Part shown: one piece after another, positions 1 through 53,579 of the stretch | Layout: each line of letters starts with the position of its first letter | Position numbering within the stretch: the first letter of the stretch is position 1 | Assembly (NCBI RefSeq): GCF_947623445.1 | Contig: NC_135244.1 | Coordinates: 13,014,860-13,078,859 of the forward strand | DNA length: 64,000 nucleotides | Source of the DNA: Clavelina lepadiformis | Taxonomy: Eukaryota | Direction: 5' to 3' | Notes under the pieces: model-generated | Told to the model about the DNA's origin: nothing | What the model saw: only the letters and a program-made list of their open reading frames with translations | Databases searched by the model: none | Made by a program: the position numbers and the translations under genes

Positions 1-445
1 TGCAAGGTAAAGGGAGTTTCCAAAGTATTGCAGCTAAATAAAACATGAATGAAATAGTTTTATGCAAAAGTGAAAAACGAATTAAAGAAGACCAGCCTAT
101 TATTAGCAGAATTCAAAAAACTGCTCTCAGTCAGAAATTTGAAAATGAGTTAGCTTGGAGTTAGTTGTTAGAAAGCATGTACGTGACTGCAATATACTCA
201 GCCAATTCATATATGATTTGCTAGGCACTGGATAAACTTGTTTATAAAAAAAATCTAGCTGAAGAAGGCAAACCTGACTGGTGCAGTGCGAAAGTCAGCT
301 ACAGCAAATCCTGTTATAATTTTTCATTTTTAAGAATGCGTCAATAAAATAAAAGAAGAGAAGAATTTCGGACCAGAGCAAAGTGGAACTGTGATGAGAG
401 TGATTTTTGAATTGATCCACAAAAATGCATAGTAGTGAGCGGTAC

Positions 446-565
446 TATGACACTTTATCGAACGACACTTTATCGAACGACAATTAATCGAACCGACAGA
501 TAATCGAACGACAGTTTATCGAACGACAGTTAATCGAACCGACAGTTGATCGAACGACAAACTTT
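446..565 (+). repeat. tandem array, ~15-16 bp unit (CAnTTnATCGAACGA) x ~8
   Basis: cactttatcgaacga / cactttatcgaacga / caattaatcgaaccga / cagataatcgaacga / cagtttatcgaacga / cagttaatcgaaccga / cagttgatcgaacga, read directly. Confidence 0.85.
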
Positions 566-1239
566 GACAATAGCTTCAAGCAAGATTTATGATATCACAC
601 TGATGAATTATATTATAGGTGTAACATCTTAAGCCTCAGTGTCATTTTAAGCCTCGGATCTTAATTGCGTGTTTCTCAAACATTGAGACAATAAGCCATT
701 GTGATGTGCGGTCTTTGTAATGGTGTGCATTAATGAATTGTGATGTATATATCATAAAGTTGACGATTTATATCTTATATCTCTATTTTATATTTGTATC
801 ATAAAGTTGACGATTTCGCATGGCGGCCGGCCCGCCATGCGAAATCGTCCGGCCCGAAACATATTAATAAGTTATCACAAGAATACGGACCGCCGTTTCT
901 TATTGAGTTTCAAACTGCAGTGTTAACACTGTTTGAAAAAATTGTGGTATTGTTACGCCACGCCCCCGCTGTGCGGAAAACCAGCTGACCGCGAGAAGAG
1001 AACGAAAGAGAATAGTTAGTCAAGTTATTGGTGCGTAAATGAGTAATATGCTTCAATGCGGAGAGAGAGCAAAATTATATAAATATCACAATATCTCAAA
1101 AATTACAAAATCCAACTTTATCAAACAAACATGGACAGATAGCTGAACATTTTTTATGAAAAGTCACCAAATTTCAATTTTCTACAGCAAACAATGCAAC
1201 TGTATGCCACGTTTTGCTATGACTGTGTGCGGGAGAAGC

Positions 1240-1320
1240 AACAGTCGATTCGATCAACTGTCGGTTCGATTACTTGTCGTTCGATCAGCTGTCGTTCGAT
1301 AAACTGTCTTTCGATTAAGT
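1240..1320 (-). repeat. inverted copy of the 446-565 tandem array
   Basis: tcgttcgataaactg etc. is the reverse complement of the cagtttatcgaacga units. Confidence 0.85.
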
Positions 1321-1364
1321 GTCGCGTCACGGTAGTGAGCATTCGTGGGTAAACGGCTTACAAA

Positions 1365-1800
1365 GTGACATGTGCTGCAGATCGTGACAACGCTAGCAGT
1401 TTGCATTGCAATAGGACACTTTTGCCAGAAAGAATCTTTAGAACAAATGCTTTGCCTGACACATTTTATGGCATCAGTAAAAATGGTTGGATGACCACAG
1501 AAATATTTTATGAATGGTTTATCAAGTGTTCTTGCCTGGTGAAAGACAGACCACTACTTATTTTCTGTGGCTATTTAACTCAATAGAAATGATACAAAAA
1601 GCAATAGCAGAAGATATTGCTCTAGTGAGCTTGCTGCCTCACATCACTGATAATTTGTAGCTTGCTTTGGGCCACTTAAAAGAGAGTGGGAGATTATGCT
1701 TAACATTTGGAGGACAAAGTCGTCAAAGCTGGGTTTCTGGCTACTGGAATATTTCCATTGGATCCTTTCAAACTTCTCAAACACTGATTTGACCCACTTC
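1365..1800 (+). pseudogene. pogo/Tigger-like DDE transposase C-terminal fragment, degraded
   Basis: Translation contains NGWMTTEIFYEWF and a KAGFLATGIFPLDP tail, typical of the pogo/Tigger DDE_1 C-terminus. The DDE third-residue block is degenerate (LLIFCGYLTQ). It is 5'-truncated with stops between fragments. Confidence 0.5.
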
Positions 1801-2679
1801 TTAAGAAAAGATATGATGCCTGGGTGAAAGACTACAAACCAGAAGAAAATTGGGAAGAAATCGCTCTTGCTATGTCAACACCAAAGAAACCTGCTTGTCC
1901 ATGTCAAGCTACTGCGCCAAAAAAAAAACAGACACCTCTCAGACCTATAGCCACTTCTTCTTCATCAACTTCTCGCTCTGTTTCTGCACATCCATCCACA
2001 TCGTTGTCAAATGTACCCAGATCCAGTGTCTGTGCTAACCTTGGTCCAAAGCCAGCGCCTGTTTTTGGTAAAGAATGGATCGTTACATGGGCACTTATCG
2101 ACAAGGTGCCATCGTTAAACCATCCTGTCTACCGAAGTTTTCAAGAAATTGTGCTTGACAAAATAAAGGGGCCTGAGAGCAAAAAATGCAGTTTTCGATT
2201 AAAAGTTAAATGCTTGAGAATCCCACTAGTTGAGTTTTTCCTAAGTTTCACACCCGTTAAAGGTTTGCTCACACCCCTGGATGGGAACCAATTTTACTGG
2301 TCAACAGAGTTTTTATGCCGGAGATGTTTTATCGATTTTGGGGTATGTTTAGGGCGCTGAATCCGAAAATATGGTTGCTTTTTCCCAATTCACTTTAGTT
2401 TTTGAAATATTTTCAAATTTTGGTTCAGAAATAGCGAAAAATGGTAAAAATTGCCAAAAATTTTGTGATGTATTCTCTTTTGCTTTTCTGTTGTATGTTC
2501 CAAGTACTAACCTGGCCTGAGGTTGTTGGACTTCTGAGGTCGGGTAACACTTACTGTATAAAAATTTTACTGTAATTCTATTAGCTATGATACCTGTCTC
2601 AAATTCATGCCAGTATTATGTTTACTGTACATATTGCTTTTACTCAATTTAAGCCTAATGTTATTTCATTACTGTGTAG

Positions 2680-2804
2680 GTAATCTGGGTCGTGTGGATT
2701 ACATCACAGAACATGAATATGATTTATTTATTCGACCTGATACTTGCAACCCAAGGTTTCGGGTGTGGTTTCACTTTACTGTAGAAAATGTTCGTCCGGA
2801 TCAG
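2680..2804 (+). CDS. AGBL4: AGBL4/CCP6-like cytosolic carboxypeptidase, N-domain exon (GNLGRVDYITEHEYDLFIRPDTCNPRFRVWFHFTVENVRPDQ)
   Basis: Acceptor tgtgtag|, donor CAG|gttatt. The translation matches the conserved CCP N-domain (FESGNL..EYDL..RFRVWF.F.VENV). Phase chain is consistent with the downstream exons. Confidence 0.8.
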
Positions 2805-5464
2805 GTTATTTATACTTCTGAGTTTCGACAGTATATTTAGTATACTCTATTTTGAATGTGTGTAAATTACAGTAGTTGGTCAGAAATTTAATTGCACATA
2901 AGATTTAAGGCAAAGTTTTTATATTTTTCAAAACTTTATTGCCCTAACTAGCTCACTGCAAACTTGTTTTAACTGACTTGCTTTAGAATATGTATTACTG
3001 TGGAACTTTGTTAAAAAACTAACATATTCACAACTGTACCTCGTAACAAAGTGCCACCGTAATGCTGCAGCATGTGTCTTCAAAAGAAGGCATGTATGTT
3101 TTGCTCACATGTGCCTACTTACTATTATCACCCTGTGCAGTGTTTTGATGTGTTATTGAGGACTGAAACGGTATCTCAAAACTTATGGCTCACTGCAACT
3201 ACAGCAGAAAATTACCAGTTTGTGTTTAAAAGTTGCCCTAATATAAATTAATGTTGTCAAAGTCAAACTTTAAAAAAATGTTATTCATATCCACTTAAAC
3301 AACATCTGGTCTACATTAGCAACTCTTTTATCCTCGAGAAGTAATTAGATGTTAAAATTGTACAAGAAGTTGGATATTTTCCATCAGCGATGGCTTTTTA
3401 GTATGTTGTAATTGAGCTACAGAAACCATGTAACAAATGAAAAAATCTTGTAAAGGACAAAGTCCAGACCATTTCACGAAATAGTTACAATCTTCGGCCT
3501 ATGATAGCAGGACACATCTTGCGATTACTTACTGTAAAAATGATCATGTAAAAATAGAAGTGACCTGGGTACTAGATGGGAAAGGAAAGGAGGCTGACCA
3601 CAGAATAATTAAAAAGAACCTTTAAAAGACACCTAAAACAGTTCAAGAAGAATTCGGTACCAGTGTTAATTGAGACAGTAGATAAAAATTATGAGGAAAA
3701 TGGGAGGCTCTTGAATTGTACCTTTATTACCTATGGTTTAAATTGTAAAAAATATGAAAACTCAACATAATCCATTTGTTTCAATCACTCCTATTAAACT
3801 ATGTTGCCCCAGTGAAGGTAAAAAGCTCTTGTTGTGTTTTTGGGTACATATTTTCTTCAGAAAAGGTTTTAGGACAACGTGAGCTCACAATAAACATAAG
3901 GGAGTTGAAAATAGTAAGATTGAAGATACTGTAAGCAGTTCTTACAGTATATATTATTTAAGCAAGGATATCTTTATCAACTTAGTTTATTTATAGTTAT
4001 CATGTTTTTACCAATGCTGCTAGATATTGTTGTATATGTTAACAACACTGGTATAGAAACGGTCATCATAACACTTGCTTACTATTAGTTTGTTGAGTAA
4101 GTTTTGATAACCAACCAAAGGTACATAATTATCTCACATACCATATTGTGTTGCCTCAAGGTTATCAACTTATCTCACCTTGACAAATAGTTTGCACTAT
4201 AGAGTGATGAATATTTATTTCACATGAAAGTGATTCATTGGTGTACTATGTCAAAACACACAATGGCATAAATTAGCCGTCTAACTAACACTTGAAAGCT
4301 GTTAAAAGAGGCAAAAACCTGTCATTTATACAGGTTGGGTTTAAAATTGAATATTCGAGCAGTTACAGTGACAATTAAATGATGCTAATTTTCAAATCGA
4401 GTTTGAAATACTTTGAATGGTATTGGAGTTAATAGTTGTTTTTCAACTTTGTCATTCTTGTGGACTGGTAAAAGTTGAAGAGATGCTTTGTAAATACTGA
4501 TAGTATAGAAATGTGATTAACTCATTATTATAAATTGAATAAATTAAAAGAATTGAGTGAATCCACATGTGCAACAACAATCATTTTGGTAAGAAATTTT
4601 CAAAGTTTCTTGTCTGTGGCCCAATAAGATCTTTTGATTATGTAATAATATCTTCTCATTGCAATATTAAAAAACAAAACCAGAGAAGAGAAAAAAGTGA
4701 GAGAGAGGGAGGGAGTAGAGTATGGTAGCTTTTGAGATAAAATGAATGGGTGTTAAATATAAGTAAACAAAATGAATTGTCATTTGTCAAATTGAATGAA
4801 ATGAGCTAAGTAGCAGAAAGTCTTATTGGATTTACAAAATTTTAAATTTCTGCAAATAAATATATCGCAACCTTCCGATGCTATCACTCTTTCCATATCT
4901 ATTTTATATTATCTAATTGTAAGCTCTTGCGGAAAATTGAAGTTTTGGCATTTAATTTAATCAATATAAACCAATAATAATACAAAGGTTGGTAGTTTTG
5001 TGTCTAGCAAAGAAAAGTTTTTAATTCAGACAGAATTTTTTTTCAGAGAATCTTATGTTTTGCTGTAAAAGGCATCATCAGTTTCTGAGCAGAAAGCAAG
5101 CAATAACCCAACTCAAAGTAACATGAAAAACCTGTGCAATAATAATTCCAGCGATTCGAAATAATTTCATTAGCCATATAATGTTTAAATATAAATAATC
5201 TACAACGTACGACGCCTGTATTACTGGTATGTAGTAATCATACATTACCCAATAAATAAAAGACTTACATGAACTAAAACTGGGAAAACGTAAAATATCT
5301 TGTTCTGTATAGAAAGTAAAACACTGAAAAGGTTAAAAAAGTTGTTGCTGGTAAAAAGAACCTTCAAAACAAGAAAAAATTATTTTTATGCAGTTACACT
5401 TAAAAGGTCTGGTTAAACTTTATTTTAAAAATTCATTCAGTGCATTATATTGTGAATTTTACAG

Positions 5465-5642: not shown

Positions 5643-5865
5643 GCAGCGAATCCCATCAAAAACTGTCTACTACTATAGATGCCCAGATCACAGAAAGAAT
5701 TATGTCATGTCTTTTGCATTTTGTTTTGATCGAGCTGATGAGAATGAAGTGTATCATTTTGCATATTCATACCCTTACACATATACAAGGCTTCAAGGAT
5801 ATTTGGATAGATTGGAAAAGAAGCAGTTACCTTATTTAGATCGACACCTTCTTACACTGACCGTG
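5643..5865 (+). CDS. AGBL4: AGBL4-like exon (W-QRIPSKTVYYYRCPDHRKNYVMSFAFCFDRADENEVYHFAYSYPYTYTRLQGYL...)
   Basis: Acceptor ctgcag|, donor GTG|gtaaga. Contains RCPDHRKNYVMSFAFCFD and FAYSYPYTYT, hallmarks of the CCP family. Confidence 0.85.
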
Positions 5866-6256
5866 GTAAGATGTGAATCTAGGGCAGGGGTGTTCAAATG
5901 ATTTCTGCCATGATCCACCACAACCAAACCTGACAACGTGGTGATCCACTAAATACGAATAGTAAACATATTGGACATGCTTTAATTTTAATGGTGCTTT
6001 ATTTATGTAAATGTACCCTACATTGTAGGGCCTACAACATATTTATAACTTTGTAAAAGTCCAAAGTGAAGTGTGCTATAGCTGCAACATTGTTTCAAGA
6101 CTACATTGGAAGATCCAGACAAAAAGTTGAAAAATCCGGATCGAGATCCGCCATTTGAACACCCCCGATCTAGGGTATTGTTGTGATTGGCAACTTCCAC
6201 CCATTTTGTTTTGGAACACTCTGTATAGGTGACTTTCATTGTACTCTGTTTTGTAG

Positions 6257-6386
6257 CAACAAAGAAGGCTTGATCTTTTAACCATAACATCACCTGAAAA
6301 TTTGAAAGAAGATGCAAAACATAATGTAGTTTTTCTTACTGGAAGGGTTCATCCTGGGGAATCACCTTCTTCACATATAGTTCAAG
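6257..6386 (+). CDS. AGBL4: AGBL4-like exon (QQRRLDLLTITSPENL...FLTGRVHPGESPSSHIVQG)
   Basis: Acceptor ttttgtag|, donor CAAG|gtatcc. Contains the zinc-ligand motif HPGE of M14 carboxypeptidases. Confidence 0.85.
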
Positions 6387-6880
6387 GTATCCCATGCAAA
6401 GTACCATACTTAAAGTACTCATCTTATTACTCATATCTGTACTCATATTCTCTTTATACCTTGCTTTTACTATAATTTACTGCACATTTCTATTGTGGTA
6501 GAGTTGCAAAGTTTGTAATACTTGGAATGAATTTTGCAAAGAAAGTCAATATATGGTATTGGCACATGTTCCTATAAAAATAACTTTTGTTAGAAGCGAC
6601 CATTTGTATCTCGCTACATACAAAAACTGAAGCACATTAAATGCAAACCACACTGCTATTCAGAATGCAGTATGCTACATGTTTACTTAGGTTGCTCCAA
6701 GTCACGTCCACATGTGAAGTGATGAAAGAATAAGACGTTGTTGCAAATTCATCATTTGTTAAATTTTTTAGAAGCAAAATTTCACTTTGCATGCCTCAAT
6801 AACTTTAACAAATGTTTGTAATAGCTAAATGGCATGATAAAGTTTTGATTTTTATGTTTATAAATAAGACATACTTTGTA

Positions 6881-6995
6881 GGGTTTATCGACTTCCTATT
6901 AAGTAATCATCCTATGGCATGTGTTTTACGAGACAACATAATTTTTAAAGTCGTTCCTATGCTTAACCCTGATGGCGTGTATTTGGGGAACTACA
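6881..6995 (+). CDS. AGBL4: AGBL4-like exon (GFIDFLLSNHPMACVLRDNIIFKVVPMLNPDGVYLGNYR)
   Basis: Acceptor ctttgtag|, donor AG|gttaga. Contains the PMLNPDGV..GNYR motif. Confidence 0.85.
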
Positions 6996-7214
6996 GGTTA
7001 GAAATGGATTAGCACTACATTTTCATCAGCAAAGTTGTTGAAAAAGTTCTGGTTTAATTGTTTGATGTTATTGCATTATGGTTGCATAATTTTACTTTTC
7101 TTGTAGCAGACTATGATTTCTTTCTAAACAAAAGTTAACAATATATGGCAATTCAGCACCATTTCTATGTCTTTTAATTTAAGTAATTAATTTTGTCAAT
7201 AAAACATACTGCAG

Positions 7215-7326
7215 GTGCTCTTTAATGGGATTCGATCTAAATCGCCATTGGCAAGATCCATCTCCCTGGGCTCATCCTACACTCCATGCTAGTAAACAGT
7301 ACCTCATGAATTTACATTCTAACATG
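7215..7326 (+). CDS. AGBL4: AGBL4-like exon (RCSLMGFDLNRHWQDPSPWAHPTLHASKQYLMNLHSNM)
   Basis: Acceptor tactgcag|, donor ATG|gtacaa. Contains GxDLNRxW. Confidence 0.8.
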
Positions 7327-46000: not shown

Positions 46001-46367
46001 AAGTGGATATTTCTATATCTGTTGTATACGATACGCAACAGGCCTCCAAAATAAGTATATTATACTCAAAAATTCAAAGTGTTTAATAATGGGGCTGATG
46101 CTAAGACCACACGCGCACCCGAAATTCTCTGAGATGCGTTCCACGCTGTCGTATCGCACATCAATATGGCTGGTTATATGTATAACTTCAAACAAGGTGT
46201 GAGCCAATTCATTTGCCTTCCTTCCGTTTTATACTTTTTGGTACATGTCTTAGAATGACCTATTTTGCTAGAACTTTTTAACTTTTATGACAATAGCAAG
46301 AAACATTTTTATTTTTAATAGATTGTTGGCAACTCAAATTATTATTTTTTTATAAGTTGGTTTGTGC

Positions 46368-47960
46368 ATGAAGACAATGGCTGCAGAATTATATTCTAAT
46401 CCTTTGCCTCCGGAGATAGAAGATGAATCCTCTACACTGGTGAATGAACCTTTAACAAATGCTGACTTTCGTAAATTACTTTCAACCCCACGCCAACTAG
46501 ATGCTAAACCGAACGAAAAAACTCAAAGGGGTTTTGCTGTGCCACGTGAATATACCTCTACCAATGACTCAGCTGCTGAACAAAGGCGAAAGAAAAAAAG
46601 CTTTTATGCTAAACTTAAAAAGCAGGAAATGGAAAGACAAGCTGAACTAGCTAAAAAATATCGAGATCGCTCAAAAGAAAGACGAGAAGGTAAAGGAGAC
46701 TATACGGATGTAGAATTAATAAGCACCACAGCTGACTATAGGGCAGTTGGTCCTACATCTGAAATGGATAGGACATCTGCTGAAAAAAGGCGTCAAGTAA
46801 TTCAGGAGTCAAAATTCTTGGGTGGAGATATGGCTCATACCCATCTTGTGAAAGGGTTAGATTTTGCTCTTCTGCAAAAAGTGAGAGCTGAAATTTCAAC
46901 CAAAGAACGTGAAAATGAAGAAATTCTTGACGATATACTGGAAAAAGATCAAAAATCTGAGCCTACTCAATGTGATAATGTAGTTGATTCAATGAACAAT
47001 AAAATGGCAAAAAATGTTTATAGAATTTTATTTCAACAAAAAATTCCCATTAGAAATGAGACTTTTTTACCTGGTCGTATGGCATATGTTTTTGAGCTTG
47101 AGGATGAGTATGCTGATTCTGACTTGCCTACGACGTTAATGAGAAGCAAAATGGATTGCCCTACTTTAGAAACACATACAACACTGTCTACAAATGACAT
47201 TGTCATTAACAAATTAACCCAAATACTTGCTTACTTACGTCATGGTTCAAAAGATAAGCACAAAAAGAAGAAGGAAAAAAAATCAAAAAGTGAAATCCAC
47301 AAGCCAGCTGAAGCCGACATGAATATATTTGATGACGTTGGAGAATATGTTCCGCCAAGTAAAGCATCTAAAAAACACAGCAAACATGGTGTTGGTCCAT
47401 ACTTTGAAAAGTCAGAATTGAAAAAGGAAGATGAGAGATTGGCATTATTGAATGTAAGTGCTAATGCATCTGTTAAACAACTTGTGCAAAACATTCATGA
47501 ACAACAGTCTACAAAAGAAAAAGTTCTTAAAACTGAAGCAGAGGCGAAGGTTAAAAAATCAGCAGGTAATCCACTGCTTGGAGGAAACGTCAATGCTCCA
47601 GACAGCTATGCGGAATGCTATCCATCCACTCAGTTTAACATATCTGGTATGGGTGAGGATAGTGATGAAGAGGCAGATTATTCCAAAATGGACATCGGAA
47701 ACAAAAAAGGCCCAGTTGGACGATGGGATTTTGATACACAAGAAGAATATAGTTCTTATATGTCTAAACGAGAGGCAATGCCTAAAGCAGCTTTTCAGTA
47801 TGGCATTAAAATGTCTGGAGGCCGCAAAACTCGGCGCACTCGCGAACAGAATGAAAAGCAGAAACTGAACAGAGAGTTGCAACAAATTCAACAAATTATA
47901 ACCAAGAGGAAAGGGTCATCAAAAAATGATGGTGATAATTACAAAAAACCAAAATATTAA
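46368..47960 (+). CDS. IK: protein Red (IK cytokine / RED) homolog, intronless, no RD/RE repeat
   Basis: The single ORF is collinear with human IK along its whole length: TNADFRKLLSTPR, RRKKKSFYAKL, AKKYRDRSKERR, ELISTTADYRAVGPT, SAEKRRQVIQESKFLGGDMAHTHLVKGLDFALLQKVRAEI, FLPGRMAYVFELEDEYADSDLPTTLMRSKMDCPT, NDIVINKLTQILAYLR, PEADMNIFDDVGEYVP, SYAECYP, YSKMDIGNKKGPVGRWDFDTQEEYSSYM, PKAAFQYGIKMSGGRKTRR, ITKRK. First ATG at 46368 or 46377 (the track's start at 46362 is TTG). Stop TAA 47958-47960. Confidence 0.9.
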   Translation: MKTMAAELYSNPLPPEIEDESSTLVNEPLTNADFRKLLSTPRQLDAKPNEKTQRGFAVPREYTSTNDSAAEQRRKKKSFYAKLKKQEMERQAELAKKYRDRSKERREGKGDYTDVELISTTADYRAVGPTSEMDRTSAEKRRQVIQESKFLGGDMAHTHLVKGLDFALLQKVRAEISTKERENEEILDDILEKDQKSEPTQCDNVVDSMNNKMAKNVYRILFQQKIPIRNETFLPGRMAYVFELEDEYADSDLPTTLMRSKMDCPTLETHTTLSTNDIVINKLTQILAYLRHGSKDKHKKKKEKKSKSEIHKPAEADMNIFDDVGEYVPPSKASKKHSKHGVGPYFEKSELKKEDERLALLNVSANASVKQLVQNIHEQQSTKEKVLKTEAEAKVKKSAGNPLLGGNVNAPDSYAECYPSTQFNISGMGEDSDEEADYSKMDIGNKKGPVGRWDFDTQEEYSSYMSKREAMPKAAFQYGIKMSGGRKTRRTREQNEKQKLNRELQQIQQIITKRKGSSKNDGDNYKKPKY

Positions 47961-48411
47961 ACATTTGGAAAATCAATTATTATTGATATATTCTAAGTAA
48001 TAGATTGATTTTAGGTTAATAAGGGAGTAATAATAAGGGAGTTGACAATGCTCAGTTTGTATATACTGTACATGGTATTTGATGAATATGTTATGTAACC
48101 TTTTGTTTATTTGCTTGCTTGCTTAGTTTTCACTTTAAGAATTATGTCATGCCTTGGTGAAAACATACTATGATTAATTTTACTACTCACGAAATAATTT
48201 GAAGTTAAATTCAATCTTGAGTCGCATACATTTGCTGCCAAATATATGTTATTTTCTTTGACAAAATGATGACATATAGTAGTATTTTATTTCAACACTG
48301 CACATGTATACAGCATGCATGTAAAAATTTAATCTGTGTTTTACTATTCTTTGACCATTTCAATTTGTCGTTTTTGGTAGACTTTTGTGCAGCTTAGGAT
48401 TAGTGAATAAA

Positions 48412-48530
48412 ATGGATTCTTATGTGGTTCAAGTTACAAACGTAGCTCCTACAGCAACTAAAGAGCAAGTTCACACACTATTTAGCTTTCTTGGAAGCAT
48501 TGATGAGTTTGCTTTATATCCAAATAATCC
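48412..48530 (+). CDS. SREK1: SREK1/SFRS12-like splicing regulator, exon 1 (MDSYVVQVTNVAPTATKEQVHTLFSFLGSIDEFALYPNNP)
   Basis: ATG at 48412, donor CC|gtaagt. Matches the vertebrate SREK1 long-isoform N-terminus MDSGVVQVTNVSPSASSEQMRTLFGFLGKIDELRLFP. Confidence 0.8.
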
Positions 48531-49415
48531 GTAAGTTGGAGCTCACATAAGTATTTTGTGGTATGTTTAACATTTTCATGTACTGTATATATGCCAGTAT
48601 CATGAGAGATTATATTGGTCATATCTTGAACAGTGGATAAAGTTTTGATATTGTGGAGAGAATGATTTATTATTATAGTTATATGGTATAATAATTGTTA
48701 AATAATCTTTTGATTATTATTGACTGAAGCAAGCAGAAGCATTAACGAAATCTTTTTTAACACTTCCGCTGACTCCAGTATTCTAAGCTTATCATTACTA
48801 CTTCTATAATGTTTATTGTAAGTGTTGAATTTTTGTTTTACCCGCCGTATTTTGTACAATATATGAAACCAACTTGGTGTTCCATCTTTTAGGAGAGAGT
48901 GACGCCAAACCAAAGCTGTGAAGGGGCGCACTTAACAAAATTACGCTAAAATTTAAACATTGTAATCTTAAATGCATATATCGTTTATTACTTATCCCAC
49001 TGTAACCATTGGAAAACTATGGTATAAGTTTAGTCATAAATCTGAATGGGATAGCAAAATTTTTTTTACTGGCTGCTCACTATTTATTTTGAAATTTTGG
49101 TTGTTCTATATGTGTATATATACAAGATATAAGTTTTGTGTAACTTAGAATGCCCCCCTACTTGGCTAACATGAACAAAATTATAACAAAAGAACCAACC
49201 AATTTATTCTTTGGCCCTGACATGTTGTCTGTACCACGAGCTGCATTGTATTTCATTGCATTTATAATAAATTTTTATGCACGTAATAACGTAAACAATA
49301 TCGCATGCGGGCCACATTAATTTGTCTGGGGCCCTGGATGCGCCTCACAGGTTGGGCATAGTTTGCATTAAACAATAAGTAATATTTCAGCACAACTTTT
49401 TACTGTTGTTTTTAG

Positions 49416-49546
49416 TGATCCTGCTAATCCTGGAACAAAGGTGTGCTTTATTAAATATAATGAAGGGGGATCTGTTGGAGTTGCACAACACTTGACAAAT
49501 ACAGTTTTCATTGATCGTCCTCTAATTTGTGTTCCATACACGGAAG
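49416..49546 (+). CDS. SREK1: SREK1-like exon 2 (DPANPGTKVCFIKYNEGGSVGVAQHLTNTVFIDRPLICVPYTEG)
   Basis: Acceptor gtttttag|, donor AAG|gtatag. Matches SRVCFVKFHDPDSAVVAQHLTNTVFVDRALIVVPYAEG. Confidence 0.85.
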
Positions 49547-50824
49547 GTATAGCATACTTAACAATTTATGCCAAAATTATAATAAGAAATATATGTAATT
49601 ACTGTCTCTTTAAACAAACAATACTTTTAAGTATGCAATAAGTAATACTGTATTATGTTTCTTGTTTGTTTTGTATTGTTCATCATTGACTATTGGTGTC
49701 ACTGCAACAAGGGATTCACTGTGATTGTTCAGCACAACTAAAGGTTATTTTCTGTAAATAGTCACAGCTTAACCTATTAATGAGCTAGCCTACTGATGTC
49801 TTATTTAAAATATTAGTGACACTATTAATAAAGTGACTGCATTTTTCAATCCTGGTAGCTTAAAGTTTATTATACAATATACAAGCCAAGTAATATTCCA
49901 ATTTATGACAGCAATACTTGAGTATAACTATTGGCATATGTATATATATATTACCATTTAATAAATCTATTTCTTTTTAACGGTTCTTACATACTTAGAT
50001 AACTAATGTGACCCTGACTTGTATTTCTTACATTTTGTATATGTTTTTGTGCATTATTGTTCAGCTGAAAGTTGCTTCCATGCTCTAACTGTAAACTTAT
50101 CTGAACATAGTGGAACTGCTGATGTTATACACCATGAAGTGTCATCAAATCATCATGCTTTCCCCTTATAATTAGGTCCAAAGACCATTTTGTTATTTTT
50201 TTTGCAGATAAGGATAGAATGTGCTTTTGGAACCCATTTAAAAAAAACTCATTTAGTACTAAATTTAATTAGTAAACTTATAAACATTCACTTTGTGACA
50301 TCTTGGAGCGGGACTTTTCAACAGACTGGTTTTAATCAATCAACATATTAATTATGTTAATGTTAATAATTATAATAATTAATATATTTACAAAGTTAAT
50401 AATTATGTACATGTTAATTACGAACCAACATGTATATCATAAAAAGTATTTTCCTTAATATTTAGTAATAATTTATGATCTAAAACTGTCACAACTTAGG
50501 TTTAGGATAATAATAATAACAGATTACAAGTTGATGTGATATTTGTTTATGATATATAGTGAAAAAATCTTCAATGTGCTATGTCATACCATGTTGATCT
50601 AGCCCGATGTGATGATAGGCTATTTGATTTTGTTACATTGTGTGTATACTTGCCTTGGTTTAGTTTGGCTGTTCTTTATCAGCACATTGCGCAAATATGG
50701 TAAAGCTTAGTATGTAGTGATGTTTATATTATGGCTCTTTATTCAACTATATGGTTTATTTATTTATACATATAATGTTTTAGCTTTGTGTTTTACTTCT
50801 CAGTAAATGATTTGTTTTTTGTAG

Positions 50825-50886
50825 GAATCATACCTGATGAATCGGTGGCAATGCAATTTATTGCTCCAGCGAATGCAGCAGGCAGT
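50825..50886 (+). CDS. SREK1: SREK1-like exon 3 (IIPDESVAMQFIAPANAAGS)
   Basis: Acceptor ttttttgtag|, donor AGT|gtgagt. Matches VIPDEAKALSLLAPANAVAG. Confidence 0.75.
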
Positions 50887-51731
50887 GTGAGTGTTATTTA
50901 TTCATAACATGTTAAAATTAGGTATGGGGTGAACATATTGCTGAATTAGGAATACAGTACTATATATTACTGCAAAACTGTTTCTATTGTCAAATTGATT
51001 TCATTTTTGATACATATGTCACCCACCATCCTAATATGGTAAAAATTAAAACAATAATTTAACTTACAATCAAAAGATCCACAACAATAGAAAACGTATG
51101 TATCTATTTTCCATGTATACTGTCAAATTTGACCACCTTATCATGTAGTTGGTTGCTTTGCTTGGATTTGATAGAAAGCAGAGTTGGCCAACTTGTCCCC
51201 AAGTTTGAACGTTCACTAATGAAGTCATGTCATATGCTATAACTATACCTGAAGCAAGCATGATGAAAAGACACCATATTTAATATTGCCGCAAACTGAT
51301 GTTTACACAACCGATTTTTATTTTCAACAAGCACTCATAAATAAATTTTATGAGGTAAATAAACATGATAATCCACATTGCGGTTGAAAAGCAAGTGATT
51401 GTGGTCCAGACTTTAAAGTTTCTATCTGGAACTAGATTGCATGTAACAGGTAGAAAAATTTGGAACTTTTAAGCAGTCGTTGTGTAGCTTAGGCAGCCTT
51501 GTTACGTAACTGGTCATCACCCAATGTTTTACTGATTAACTGTAACAACTAATAATTACTATTTATTTATCACATGAGCTTCCTTTGTTTAGCATATGGT
51601 TTCCAATTTTAAGTTATTTTTTATTTGTTACTTTTATGAGAAAATCTTAGTTTTCATAACCTTAATCTTTTGGTTACAGTGTATCATAAAATTTGGTCTG
51701 TGTCTCTGTTATTATTGTTAAAATTACTTTA

Positions 51732-51803
51732 GGGTGGAAGCATGGATCCAGCCAAGCTAGACGAAATAAGACGGACAATTTATGTTGGAAATCTTGATTC
51801 AAA
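51732..51803 (+). CDS. SREK1: SREK1-like exon 4 (GGSMDPAKLDEIRRTIYVGNLDSK)
   Basis: Acceptor tactttag|, donor AAG|gtagta. Matches GNVDPSKIDEIRRTVYVGNLNSQ. Confidence 0.8.
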
Positions 51804-52249
51804 GGTAGTAGTCTTATTTCTTTTTATCGCGATTTGTCAAGCATGCAACATGTTTGTTATACAATATTTCCAAAGTTTCTGTAGGGTATTATTAACTTTT
51901 TGTATAATTCACTTACTGTAAATATATTGATTTTCAGTCTGATCATTTCCTTAGGAACATCATTTCACTCCAGCTTTGTTATGTCTTTTAACACTATCAA
52001 AGTCACAACTTGTATATTTCCTGTAAGCAAAAAGGCACAGGCCTGAAACCATATCGTAATTGTAGGGAGATGGTAATGCGTTGCAGCCAAAAGTTAAGCA
52101 TTTAAGTTTGGGTTGGTACTTTAATAGTTTACGGGATAACAGTAGTGTAAACAAATTACTTGGCCTTGATTGAATTAATCATCAAAAGTCAAAATATTTA
52201 TTTTTCATTTTGTTGTATGTGCTTGTTATGTAACCTTTTGAACCTTCAG

Positions 52250-52428
52250 ACTGCTACCGCGGAACAACTTATGTCTTTTTTCTCCACTTGTGGTGAAGTG
52301 AAGTTTGTTCGAATGGCTGGTGATGAAACTCAGCCAACTCGATTTGCATTTGTAGAGTTTGCAGATGTGGAGAATGTGCAAAAGGCCATACAACTAAATG
52401 GTGTTCTTTTTGGAGAACGTCCATTAAA
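52250..52428 (+). CDS. SREK1: SREK1-like exon 5, RRM (TATAEQLMSFFSTCGEVKFVRMAGDETQPTRFAFVEFADVENVQKAIQLNGVLFGERPLK)
   Basis: Acceptor ccttcag|, donor AA|gtaagg. KFVRMAGDETQPTRFAFVEFAD is identical to human SREK1. Confidence 0.9.
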
Positions 52429-52686
52429 GTAAGGCAAATTACTTTACTTTAAGTTTCTTATCATTAAAAGTAAGAAAATTACTTTTTAATTTAACTTTTT
52501 TAGCAATTTTCTAACATAACTAATCATATGAAAGTAACATTATAATCATCAATTTACATTTAATTAGTTATGTTTTCTAATAAACAACAATTCATTCAAC
52601 ACTAGCATCATGCTAAGCTTGTAGTAAATATATTTTCTATTTCAATGCCCGTAAACTTAACTATATAACCACTTTGGCATACACAG

Positions 52687-52829
52687 GATAAATCACTCAA
52701 ACAATGCCATCGTAAAACCTCCTGGTAAAAATCAGGATGCAACGTCACGTGAAATAGATGAGGCTATGCGACGAGTTCGTGAAGCACAGTCTTTAATTTC
52801 AAAAGCTTTGGAACCTGATCGTAAATCAA
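52687..52829 (+). CDS. SREK1: SREK1-like exon 6 (K-INHSNNAIVKPPGKNQDATSREIDEAMRRVREAQSLISKALEPDRKS)
   Basis: Acceptor acacag|, donor A|gtatgt. Matches KINHSNNAIVKPPE...MKRVREAQSFISAAIEP. Confidence 0.85.
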
Positions 52830-52935
52830 GTATGTTTTATGAATTAAACTTAATAATTGTTTTTATTATAGTTCCACGAAAACGTAAGGAAGTTTACGGT
52901 TTTGATTGCAAATTTGACTTGAATTACTATTGTAG

Positions 52936-53071
52936 CCCGAAAAAGGTCTCGCAGTCGATCTCGCTCAAGGCATCGGCGCCATCGATCACGCAGTAGGGAT
53001 AGATCACGCCGTCGTAGATCACGTTCCAGATCCCACGGAAGATCTCGTCGATCCAGATCTAAAGATCGAAG
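52936..53071 (+). CDS. SREK1: SREK1-like exon 7, RS domain (RKRSRSRSRSRHRRHRSRSRDRSRRRRSRSRSHGRSRRSRSKDRR)
   Basis: Acceptor tattgtag|, donor AG|gtagct. The alternative acceptor at 52871 runs into a stop, so 52936 is preferred. Confidence 0.7.
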
Positions 53072-53159
53072 GTAGCTCATAACTTCTAAAACTACTTATA
53101 TGTTTCTGGGAGAACAATGGTTGCCATATCGTCACTTGCTTTGTCTTGTGCATTTGCAG

Positions 53160-53261
53160 AAGAAGCCGGCGGAGTAGAAGTCGAAGTAGGGACAGACGAC
53201 GCAGAAAATCAAGATCGCGTTCACCACGTCGAAGATCCAGCTCACGTTCGCCAAACAAAAA
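53160..53261 (+). CDS. SREK1: SREK1-like exon 8, RS domain (RRSRRSRSRSRDRRRRKSRSRSPRRRSSSRSPNK)
   Basis: Acceptor catttgcag|, donor AA|gtgaat. Read-through would end as ...PNKK* 5 nt later, so a short isoform is possible. Confidence 0.65.
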
Positions 53262-53419
53262 GTGAATCATCATGCTTAGTTTAGTTGGAGATTGTGTGGA
53301 ACAATAGCCATAGGTTCCACGTGTCTTATAATTATACAATCCAAGAATCTGTATGAGTTCATTCATTTAATTAGCGATTTTGTACTTCATGTTTTCATTC
53401 TGCTTATATTGGTTATCAG

Positions 53420-53579
53420 GGGTCACCGAAAAGATCGCAAACGTGAAAAAGATCATAAACGCAGCAGTAAACATAGAGAACGCAGCAAGAATACATCGGA
53501 TAATGAAAGTGTAGAGGAGAAAAGTGAGAACAAGAAACCCTCTCAAAATGGAAACGGCGTGGTAGAAGCTAGTACCTAA
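53420..53579 (+). CDS. SREK1: SREK1-like exon 9, terminal (K-GHRKDRKREKDHKRSSKHRERSKNTSDNESVEEKSENKKPSQNGNGVVEAST*)
   Basis: Acceptor ggttatcag|, stop TAA 53577-53579. The nine exons sum to 1104 nt (367 aa) with all intron phases consistent. Confidence 0.7.

What the first reader, a model, noticed from the sequence alone, without database searches (positions are those of the whole stretch)
46368..48530. Intronless RED/IK homolog lacking its RD/RE repeat, sitting ~450 bp head-to-tail upstream of a nine-exon SREK1-like gene
In vertebrates IK is a multi-exon gene. Here the full-length homolog is one uninterrupted ORF, while every neighbouring gene in the window has 1-2.6 kb introns. The arginine-aspartate/glutamate repeat that gives 'Red' its name is absent. 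An unrelated K/S-rich linker (KASKKHSKHGVGPYFEKSELKKEDERLALLNV...) occupies that position, with flanking blocks PEADMNIFDDVGEYVP and SYAECYP intact. The TAA at 47960 is only 451 bp from the SREK1-like ATG at 48412, same strand. Both products are spliceosome-associated, IK/Red as a spliceosomal B-complex factor and SREK1 as an SR-related regulator. This could be a retrocopy that replaced the parental gene, an ancestrally intron-poor gene, or a co-regulated or polycistronic pair. I saw no poly(A) tract or flanking direct repeats, so the retrogene signature, if any, is eroded.
Basis: partly seen in the sequence, partly recalled or inferred. Interest (0 to 1): 0.7.

Follow-up and report, generated by a model that had tools for sequence, protein, structure and literature searches.

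The report
Intronless sea-squirt Red/IK splicing gene
This is the normal, working copy of the splicing factor Red/IK in the sea squirt Clavelina lepadiformis; it lost all its ancient introns long ago, as its relatives did, and sits unusually close to another splicing gene, so the two may be read as one transcript, which is common in sea squirts.

Summary
Window 46368-47960 (+) is one uninterrupted 530-codon ORF, 100% identical to NCBI 'protein Red-like [Clavelina lepadiformis]'. It has RED_N and RED_C and aligns end to end with human Red, except for the human RD/RE repeat. A SREK1-like gene of about 9-10 exons starts 451 nt downstream on the same strand.

Most of the apparent oddities are ordinary:
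- All 17 tunicate-type Red proteins found lack the repeat. So do about 90% of diverse homologues, and its length varies widely in vertebrates.
- Only about 8 residues replace the repeat. The 'linker' after it is homologous to human Red.
- The intronless state is old. Trichoplax (19 coding exons) and a bonefish (20) share at least 12 intron positions, so the ancestor was intron-rich.
- Three long genomic contigs of related ascidians, and probably a Styela-like one, also carry single-exon Red. dS is saturated and dN is about 0.15.
- No second tunicate Red appeared among the 120 best hits.

The best reading is an ancient cDNA-mediated loss of all introns. Red is the sole functional orthologue.

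The SREK1 adjacency is absent in relatives. The layout fits Ciona-type operons, 60% of which have a single-exon first gene, but no transcript data could be reached to test this. Interest is low.

The parts
46368..47960 (+). Single-exon Red/IK coding sequence, 530 codons plus TAA. The likely true start is ATG 46377.
   Evidence: ORF. RED_N and RED_C. End-to-end alignment to human Red. 100% identity to NCBI protein Red-like [Clavelina lepadiformis]. Start comparison with relatives.
46310..46367 (+). T-rich tracts ending in AG at 46320-46321 and 46355-46356, just upstream of the Red ATG. These are candidate trans-splice or 5'UTR-intron acceptor sites; this role is inferred only.
   Evidence: Sequence read. 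No transcript data.
46989..47141 (+). Codons about 208-258, which align to human Red aa 207-257, the SMU1-binding middle region. About 60% identical to human.
   Evidence: Alignment. The region is defined in PMC10943123.
47376..47396 (+). Site where vertebrates carry the RD/RE repeat. Here about 7 unaligned residues (KHSKHGV) sit between conserved VPPSKASK and PYFEK.
47956..47961 (+). ATTAAA overlapping the Red stop codon. It could be a poly(A) signal giving a very short 3'UTR. It is not conserved in relatives, most of which use TGA.
47961..48411 (+). 451-nt spacer at 28% GC between the Red stop and the SREK1-like ATG. It holds no AATAAA except at 48406-48411, abutting the ATG. It also holds a 12-nt tandem duplicate at 48017-48042.
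48360..48392 (+). Acceptor-like AGs at 48379-48380 (after tcgtttttggt) and 48391-48392, lying 31 and 19 nt before the SREK1-like ATG. These are candidate trans-splice acceptors or the cistron boundary; this role is inferred.
48412..48531 (+). SREK1-like exon 1 (MDSYVVQVTNVAPTATKEQVHTLFSFLGSIDEFALYPNNP), followed by GTAAGT.
48412..53579 (+). SREK1-like gene with about 9-10 coding exons. After exon 1, the further exons lie at approximately 49417-49551, 50824-50886, 51736-51810, 52247-52429 and 52685-52822. These are followed by a probable micro-exon, two RS-rich exons, and a last exon ending at TAA 53579.
   Evidence: tblastn with SREK1 homologues. Frame reading. Two RRM_1 stretches. Homologues named SREK1.

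Best explanation
The ORF is the sole, functional Red/IK orthologue of the ascidian Clavelina lepadiformis. Red/IK is a spliceosomal B-complex protein and the partner of SMU1.

Its ancestor had about 18-19 introns in the coding region. All of them were removed in one sweep by a reverse-transcribed mRNA, before the ascidian lineages sampled here diverged. This could have been retroposition followed by loss of the parent, or recombination of the gene with its own cDNA. Any poly(A) tail or target-site duplication has long since decayed.

The RD/RE repeat was not lost from this gene in particular. It is a low-complexity insertion of variable length that tunicates, and most non-vertebrates, do not have. 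The SMU1-binding middle region and both Pfam domains are kept.

The position 451 nt upstream of SREK1 is a juxtaposition seen in the Clavelina lineage but not in relatives.

For expression I commit, at about 0.55 and by inference only, to a Ciona-type operon resolved by spliced-leader (SL) trans-splicing. One promoter would lie upstream of Red. The Red mRNA would end at, and the SREK1 mRNA be trans-spliced at, an AG around 48380-48392.

Shown: identity, intronlessness, conservation, ancestral intron-richness, the distribution of the repeat, and the non-conserved adjacency.
Inferred: the cDNA mechanism, its timing, and the operon.
For: - Identity: (100% match to RefSeq Red-like of Clavelina).
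- Functional constraint: dN 0.15-0.17 against relatives with saturated dS (one estimate 2.9, ratio 0.05). The SMU1-binding segment is conserved (PMC10943123).
- Ancestral introns: Trichoplax has 19 coding blocks and bonefish 20, and 12 of 18 Trichoplax intron positions coincide with bonefish ones.
- Old, shared intronlessness: single uninterrupted Red ORFs on genomic contigs of 1.07 Mb, 0.51 Mb and 24 kb from related species with 77-79% identity. There is also one on an 8.98-kb contig of a Styela-like species that begins with a truncated tRNA-like sequence, so it is probably DNA.
- Single copy: among the 120 best hits, all at least 49% identical, each named tunicate has one Red.
- Repeat: 0 of 17 tunicate-type proteins and 8 of 80 diverse representatives have a run of 8 residues or more. 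In vertebrates the run ranges from 0 to 34.
- Operon: the two genes are on the same strand with a 451-nt CDS-to-CDS gap, while the other recognisable genes in the window lie kilobases apart. The upstream gene is single-exon, as in 60% of Ciona operons (PMC2760879). Ciona operons have no intercistronic DNA, and 16 of 18 lack AATAAA near the upstream 3' end (PMC1488885). Here no AATAAA precedes the acceptor-like AGs.
Against: - No retrogene hallmarks are left, so the cDNA mechanism rests only on the all-or-none pattern of intron loss. Stepwise loss in intron-losing tunicates cannot be excluded.
- Ciona, Phallusia and Styela gene structures could not be read. Several tunicate contigs are short and may be transcripts.
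- Against the operon: no transcript data exist for this locus.
- Absence of AATAAA is uninformative. 61% of shuffled spacers also lack it, and relatives and the SREK1 3' end also lack it.
- ATTAAA at the stop could give a short 3'UTR. That would leave about 400 nt, enough for a promoter plus an outron (the stretch between the transcription start and the trans-splice acceptor) of typical Ciona size, which has a mode near 100 bp and a mean of 438 bp (PMC4691747).
- The adjacency is absent within 10 kb in three relatives.
Confidence: 0.55

Rival explanations
1. Two independent, tightly packed transcription units. Red is polyadenylated shortly after its stop, for example via the ATTAAA at 47956. 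SREK1 has its own promoter within the roughly 400 nt that remain, with or without trans-splicing of a short outron. The neighbourhood would be a chance product of tunicate genome rearrangement.
For: - ATTAAA overlaps the stop, with a CA about 23 nt downstream.
- Ciona outrons peak near 100 bp (PMC4691747), so the spacer has enough room.
- The adjacency is not conserved in L001, L002 and L004.
- About half of Ciona genes are monocistronic and trans-spliced (PMC1488885).
Against: - The 451-nt gap is far shorter than the other distances between recognisable genes in this window.
- The single-exon-first arrangement is the signature of Ciona operons.
- The ATTAAA is a by-product of the codons TAT-TAA-A and is not conserved.
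Confidence: 0.33
2. Nested or host-gene arrangement. SREK1 transcription starts upstream of Red, from a 5'UTR exon or promoter before 46300. The AG at 48380 or 48392 would then be a cis-splice acceptor, so Red would lie inside the first intron of SREK1 or borrow its promoter.
For: - Acceptor-like AGs lie directly before the SREK1 ATG.
- No obvious coding exons were seen by eye among stop-free stretches of 45 aa or more in the roughly 16 kb upstream of Red. No domain or similarity search was run on that region.
Against: No donor site or upstream exon was identified. In a trans-splicing organism an unpaired acceptor is more simply explained by SL addition (PMC1488885).
Confidence: 0.07
3. A recent, lineage-specific retrocopy, with the intron-containing parental IK gene that carries the RD/RE repeat still present elsewhere in the Clavelina genome.
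For: The coding region has no introns at all.
Against: - The same intronless, repeat-less gene occurs in several ascidians that have diverged to saturated dS.
- Only one Clavelina Red appears among the best 120 hits.
- There is no poly(A) tract or target-site duplication.
- Purifying selection is strong.
Confidence: 0.03
4. The gene was never intron-rich. A single-exon Red would be the ancestral chordate state and vertebrates gained their introns later.
For: None beyond the tunicate genes themselves.
Against: A placozoan and a teleost share at least 12 intron positions, so these introns predate chordates.
Confidence: 0.02

Closest known systems
Human protein Red / IK (PDB 5O9Z chain R, 6Q8I), spliceosomal B-complex partner of SMU1
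   Same: RED_N and RED_C are present. The proteins are colinear from residue 6 to the C-terminal KPKY. Identity is about 52-57%. The SMU1-binding region (aa 207-257) is conserved.
   Different: There is no RD/RE repeat (human 335-381). The gene has one coding exon, against about 20 in vertebrates (bonefish). It is not head-to-head with NDUFA2, as it is in bonefish.
Red proteins of other tunicates (Ciona intestinalis XP_002129642.1, Phallusia mammillata, Styela clava, and unnamed ENA/Logan contigs)
   Same: 63-79% identical (Styela 63%, Ciona and Phallusia 73%, unnamed ENA/Logan contigs 77-79%). All lack the repeat and share the same short ...KHSKYGVGPYFEK junction. The ORF is single-exon wherever genomic DNA was available.
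   Different: Their neighbours differ. No SREK1 lies within 10 kb in L001, L002 or L004. A BEACH/WD40 ORF lies upstream in L005.
Ciona SL-resolved operons (KH operon set; Satou et al. 2006, 2008)
   Same: Same-strand pair, a single-exon 5'-most gene, a short gap, no AATAAA before the putative boundary, and AG acceptors just upstream of the downstream ATG.
   Different: The defining evidence is not available here: abutting mRNA ends, SL on the downstream mRNA, and a dicistronic precursor. The species is different, and no study of operons in Clavelina came up in the papers read here.
Orphan retrogenes, meaning a retrocopy that survives after the parental gene is lost, and cDNA-mediated intron loss
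   Same: All ancestral introns are missing from an otherwise full-length, constrained, single-copy gene.
   Different: No poly(A) remnant or target-site duplication survives. A change of locus cannot be demonstrated.

Membership tests
Red/IK protein family | RED_N domain (PF07808) | tested here: met
   E 1.4e-91, covering profile positions 1-234 of 234.
Red/IK protein family | RED_C domain (PF07807) | tested here: met
   E 4.3e-50, covering profile positions 1-108 of 112.
Red/IK protein family | Middle region that binds the SMU1 N-terminal dimer (human aa 207-257) | tested here: met
   The region aligns without gaps and is about 60% identical. It is defined in PMC10943123. Binding itself was not tested.
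Red/IK protein family | RD/RE dipeptide repeat, the feature that gave the protein its name | tested here: not met
   No R-[DE] run of 6 or more residues. The repeat does not define the family: only 8 of 80 diverse homologues have a run of 8 or more, and 0 of 17 tunicate proteins do.
Processed retrogene | Lacks all introns of the ancestral gene | tested here: met
   One ORF, against 19-20 coding exons and at least 12 shared intron positions in the outgroups.
Processed retrogene | 3' poly(A) remnant | tested here: not met
   No A tract follows the stop.
Processed retrogene | Flanking target-site duplication | tested here: not met
   The only flanking pair is a 13/16 match at 46228 and 48364, at chance level in AT-rich DNA.
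Processed retrogene | Located away from the parental locus, or a parental copy is identifiable | tested here: inconclusive
   No NDUFA2 neighbour as in bonefish, but that linkage is not shown to be ancestral. No second tunicate Red among the best hits. The whole genome could not be searched.
Ciona-type SL-resolved operon | Adjacent genes on the same strand | tested here: met
Ciona-type SL-resolved operon | The upstream mRNA 3' end abuts the downstream trans-splice acceptor (less than 100 bp between the mRNAs) | not testable with these tools
   No Clavelina transcript contig was retrievable.
Ciona-type SL-resolved operon | The downstream gene is SL trans-spliced at an unpaired acceptor | not testable with these tools
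   Acceptor-like AGs exist at 48379-48380 and 48391-48392. Their use is unknown.
Ciona-type SL-resolved operon | No canonical AATAAA within 40 nt upstream of the boundary (true of 16 of 18 Ciona operons) | tested here: inconclusive
   None is present. But 61% of shuffled spacers also lack it, and so do non-adjacent relatives.
SREK1 (SFRS12) family, for the downstream gene | Two RRMs, the INHSNNAIVKPP motif and an RS-rich C-terminus | tested here: met
   Two RRM_1 stretches. Exon-by-exon tblastn gives 58-75% identity. RS-rich frames are seen. Hits are named SREK1.

The most novel reading that the evidence does not exclude
Red and SREK1 form a real dicistronic operon in Clavelina that couples two splicing regulators. 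It would have arisen when the intronless, cDNA-derived Red gene came to lie in the outron of the trans-spliced SREK1 gene, between its promoter and its trans-splice acceptor. If so, this locus, together with the tandem pair of a single-exon BEACH gene and a single-exon Red gene in L005, would illustrate a general route by which intronless genes become the single-exon first cistrons. Such cistrons make up 60% of Ciona operons, and Satou et al. 2008 left that observation unexplained.
Probability: 0.2. Interest if true: 0.45.

Novelty: new member of a known kind. Interest (0 to 1): 0.2.

Why it matters
It matters little on its own. The gene is already annotated, intronless genes are common in tunicates, and the missing repeat is the norm outside vertebrates.

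The locus does have modest value as a clean example of an essential spliceosomal gene that lost about 18 ancient introns all at once and has stayed single-copy across ascidians.

It also has value as a candidate operon. A single-exon gene sits in front of a multi-exon gene, which is the arrangement that dominates Ciona operons and whose origin is still unexplained. If RNA data confirm co-transcription, comparing this locus with relatives, where Red has other neighbours, could show how such operons are assembled.

Tried and rejected
- Exact-protein look-up of the Clavelina Red locus found nothing on record. The same was true for lamprey Red.
- A homologue search with concatenated SREK1 exons returned only short proteins and no Clavelina model. 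The RefSeq exon structure could therefore not be recovered.
- SREK1 exons were searched against five related loci with no hit. tblastx of the window against relatives, and of relatives against each other, found no conserved flanking exons.
- Short tunicate contigs L003 and L008 were inspected for a spliced leader or a poly(A) tail. Neither was found, so they do not say whether Red is trans-spliced.
- The poly(A)-signal analysis was uninformative, because canonical signals are rare after all these genes.
- dN/dS could not be computed properly, because dS is saturated.
- Rfam over 44.0-54.5 kb and tRNA scans of the window found nothing.
- A direct-repeat search for target-site duplications gave only chance-level matches.
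It was found next to bonefish IK but nowhere in the window.
- A literature search for the run and assembly accessions, meant to name the related species, found nothing. Spartz et al. 2004 on SMU-2 is not held.
Full report
**What is there.**
The window comes from the ascidian Clavelina lepadiformis. The ORF at 46368-47960 (+) translates to 530 residues that are 100% identical to NCBI 'protein Red-like [Clavelina lepadiformis]', found on a 24.6-Mb record. It carries complete RED_N (E 1.4e-91) and RED_C (E 4.3e-50) domains. It aligns with human Red from spliceosome structures (5o9z_R) over residues 6-336 and 344-530, matching human 6-334 and 382-557. The coding sequence is therefore full length and uninterrupted.

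The stop is at 47958-47960. An ATG at 48412 opens the first exon of a SREK1-like gene on the same strand, 451 nt away. That gene has two RRMs, the INHSNNAIVKPP motif and RS-rich C-terminal exons. It has about 9-10 coding exons, and the first five introns measure about 0.25-1.3 kb.

**The missing RD/RE repeat is not special.**
None of the 17 tunicate-type Red proteins recovered has an R-[DE] run. This set includes Ciona, Phallusia and Styela. Among 80 diverse cluster representatives of at least 450 aa, only 8 have a run of 8 or more. Named repeat-less examples include a mayfly, a barnacle and Trichoplax, whereas a mantis shrimp has a repeat.

In vertebrates the longest run ranges from 0 to 34 residues. 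An elephant isoform skips it exactly (...TTKTP|HSYFEK...). The repeat is a variable low-complexity insertion at one point in the protein.

Clavelina PYFEKSE...VKQLVQNIHEQ aligns to human SYFEKPK...KELIKSINEKF, and only about 8 residues occupy the repeat's position. Human Red aa 207-257 is the one ordered part of the protein in the B complex, and it binds the SMU1 dimer (PMC10943123). That segment is conserved here.

**The gene was once intron-rich.**
The Trichoplax sp. H2 Red gene spans 4.2 kb and has 19 coding blocks. The bonefish (Albula) gene spans 8.6 kb and has 20. Mapped onto a common alignment, 12 of 18 Trichoplax intron positions coincide within one column with bonefish positions. Three more lie within two columns. 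At least a dozen introns therefore predate chordates, and Clavelina has none of them. This refutes the 'ancestrally intron-poor' reading.

**The loss is old and the gene is the working copy.**
Uninterrupted Red ORFs of 523-530 aa lie on genomic contigs of 1.07 Mb, 0.51 Mb and 24 kb from related species that are 77-79% identical to Clavelina and 84-92% identical to one another.

An 8.98-kb contig from a species whose Red is 75% identical to that of Styela clava also has a single-exon Red. It begins with a truncated tRNA-like sequence, which suggests that it is DNA. The Rfam score is weak (16 bits, E 0.9).

Synonymous sites are saturated in almost every comparison, while dN is 0.15-0.17. The only finite estimate gives dN/dS of 0.05. 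Among the 120 best database hits, all at least 49% identical, each named tunicate contributes one Red.

The simplest account is a single cDNA-mediated event before these ascidian lineages split. It could have been retroposition with loss of the parent, or conversion of the gene by its own cDNA. Either way it leaves the sole orthologue.

No poly(A) tract or credible target-site duplication remains. The vertebrate neighbour NDUFA2 lies head-to-head with IK in bonefish but is absent from the window. That linkage is not shown to be ancestral, so relocation and in-place conversion cannot be separated.

**The SREK1 neighbourhood.**
No SREK1 exon is detectable within 10 kb of Red in three relatives or on two shorter contigs. 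No flanking coding similarity exists between the window and the relatives, or among the relatives. The juxtaposition is therefore not shared by the relatives sampled.

The pair is nevertheless striking in this window. The other recognisable genes are a carboxypeptidase-like gene near 2-6 kb, an EF-hand gene near 24 kb and a SAM/lipase-like gene near 58 kb, and they lie kilobases apart.

In Ciona about 20% of genes are in SL-resolved operons. These operons have no intercistronic DNA, 60% have a single-exon first gene, and 16 of 18 lack AATAAA before the boundary (PMC2760879; PMC1488885). The Clavelina pair fits this pattern:
- a single-exon gene comes first;
- the CDS-to-CDS distance of 451 nt is a plausible sum of a 3'UTR and a 5'UTR;
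- AG acceptors preceded by a T-rich tract sit at 48379-48380 and 48391-48392;
- no AATAAA lies upstream of them.

None of this is discriminating:
- absence of AATAAA is expected by chance in 61% of shuffles, and it is also seen after Red in relatives and after SREK1;
- an ATTAAA overlapping the stop could end the Red mRNA early;
- Ciona outrons are typically about 100 bp (PMC4691747), so an independent SREK1 promoter would fit in the spacer.

No Clavelina transcript contig was reachable. From Ciona base rates I judge an operon somewhat more likely than not, at about 0.55. This is inference.

**Verdict.**
This is an ordinary, already annotated and strongly constrained Red/IK orthologue. Its intronless structure and lack of the RD/RE repeat are shared by the other ascidians sampled here. 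Its closeness to SREK1 is a local juxtaposition of a kind that is common in tunicate genomes and may be an operon. Interest is low (0.2). The most novel reading still open is that this is a genuine operon created by an intronless gene settling in the outron of a trans-spliced gene. I put that at about 0.2 probability and moderate interest.

Noticed in passing
L005:1-7249: In a Styela-like tunicate contig (Logan SRR25569784), a truncated tRNA-like 5' half lies at 1-34 (-). It is followed by an uninterrupted 1619-aa BEACH/WD40 ORF at 167-5026 (+). The intronless Red ORF at 5708-7249 (+) follows 680 nt later, with a strong tttttcAG acceptor 45 nt before its ATG. Two large single-exon genes in tandem make this a candidate operon with Red as the downstream cistron.
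   Followed up: partly
window:46368-46379: Two in-frame ATGs. RefSeq uses 46368, whose context is weak (gtgcATGa). ATG 46377 has the context acaATGg and aligns with the N-termini of all related Red proteins (MATEMY, MASEIY, MTSEAF), so the real protein is probably 527 aa.
   Followed up: partly
window:48406-48414 and 47956-47961: The only AATAAA between the two genes directly abuts the SREK1 start codon (AATAAAATG). An ATTAAA overlaps the Red stop codon (TATTAAA); the same overlap occurs in relative L003 but not in the others.
   Followed up: partly
window:48017-48042: Perfect 12-nt tandem duplicate TAATAAGGGAGT, with two bases between the copies, in the Red-SREK1 spacer. Its meaning is unknown.
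   Followed up: no
window:19558-21171: Four consecutive + strand ORF pieces in different frames look by eye like a decayed hAT/ZBED-type transposase (for example ...SIATDGAPSMVGKNKG...CLIHQQAL...). Pfam gave no significant hit.
   Followed up: partly
window:2562-5898: + strand exons of a cytosolic carboxypeptidase (AGBL/CCP)-like gene. Pfam Pepdidase_M14_N gives E 6e-4, just below the gathering score.
   Followed up: partly
window:24003-24272: - strand exon encoding an EF-hand pair that looks calcyphosine-like (EF-hand_7, E 8e-13).
   Followed up: partly
window:57550-58877: - strand exon pieces with a GHSLG lipase-type motif and a weak SAM domain (E 4e-4), resembling a DDHD/SEC23IP-type phospholipase gene convergent on SREK1.
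   Followed up: partly
window:45850-46200: A stretch that looks more GC-rich than its surroundings (not measured), about 170-500 bp upstream of Red. It has long overlapping ORFs on both strands and no homology found. It could be a promoter region or a repeat element.
   Followed up: no
L007:497-1015: In bonefish, the first NDUFA2 exon lies head-to-head about 400 bp upstream of the IK start codon, which suggests a bidirectional promoter. This linkage is absent from the Clavelina window and from the Trichoplax locus flanks.
   Followed up: partly
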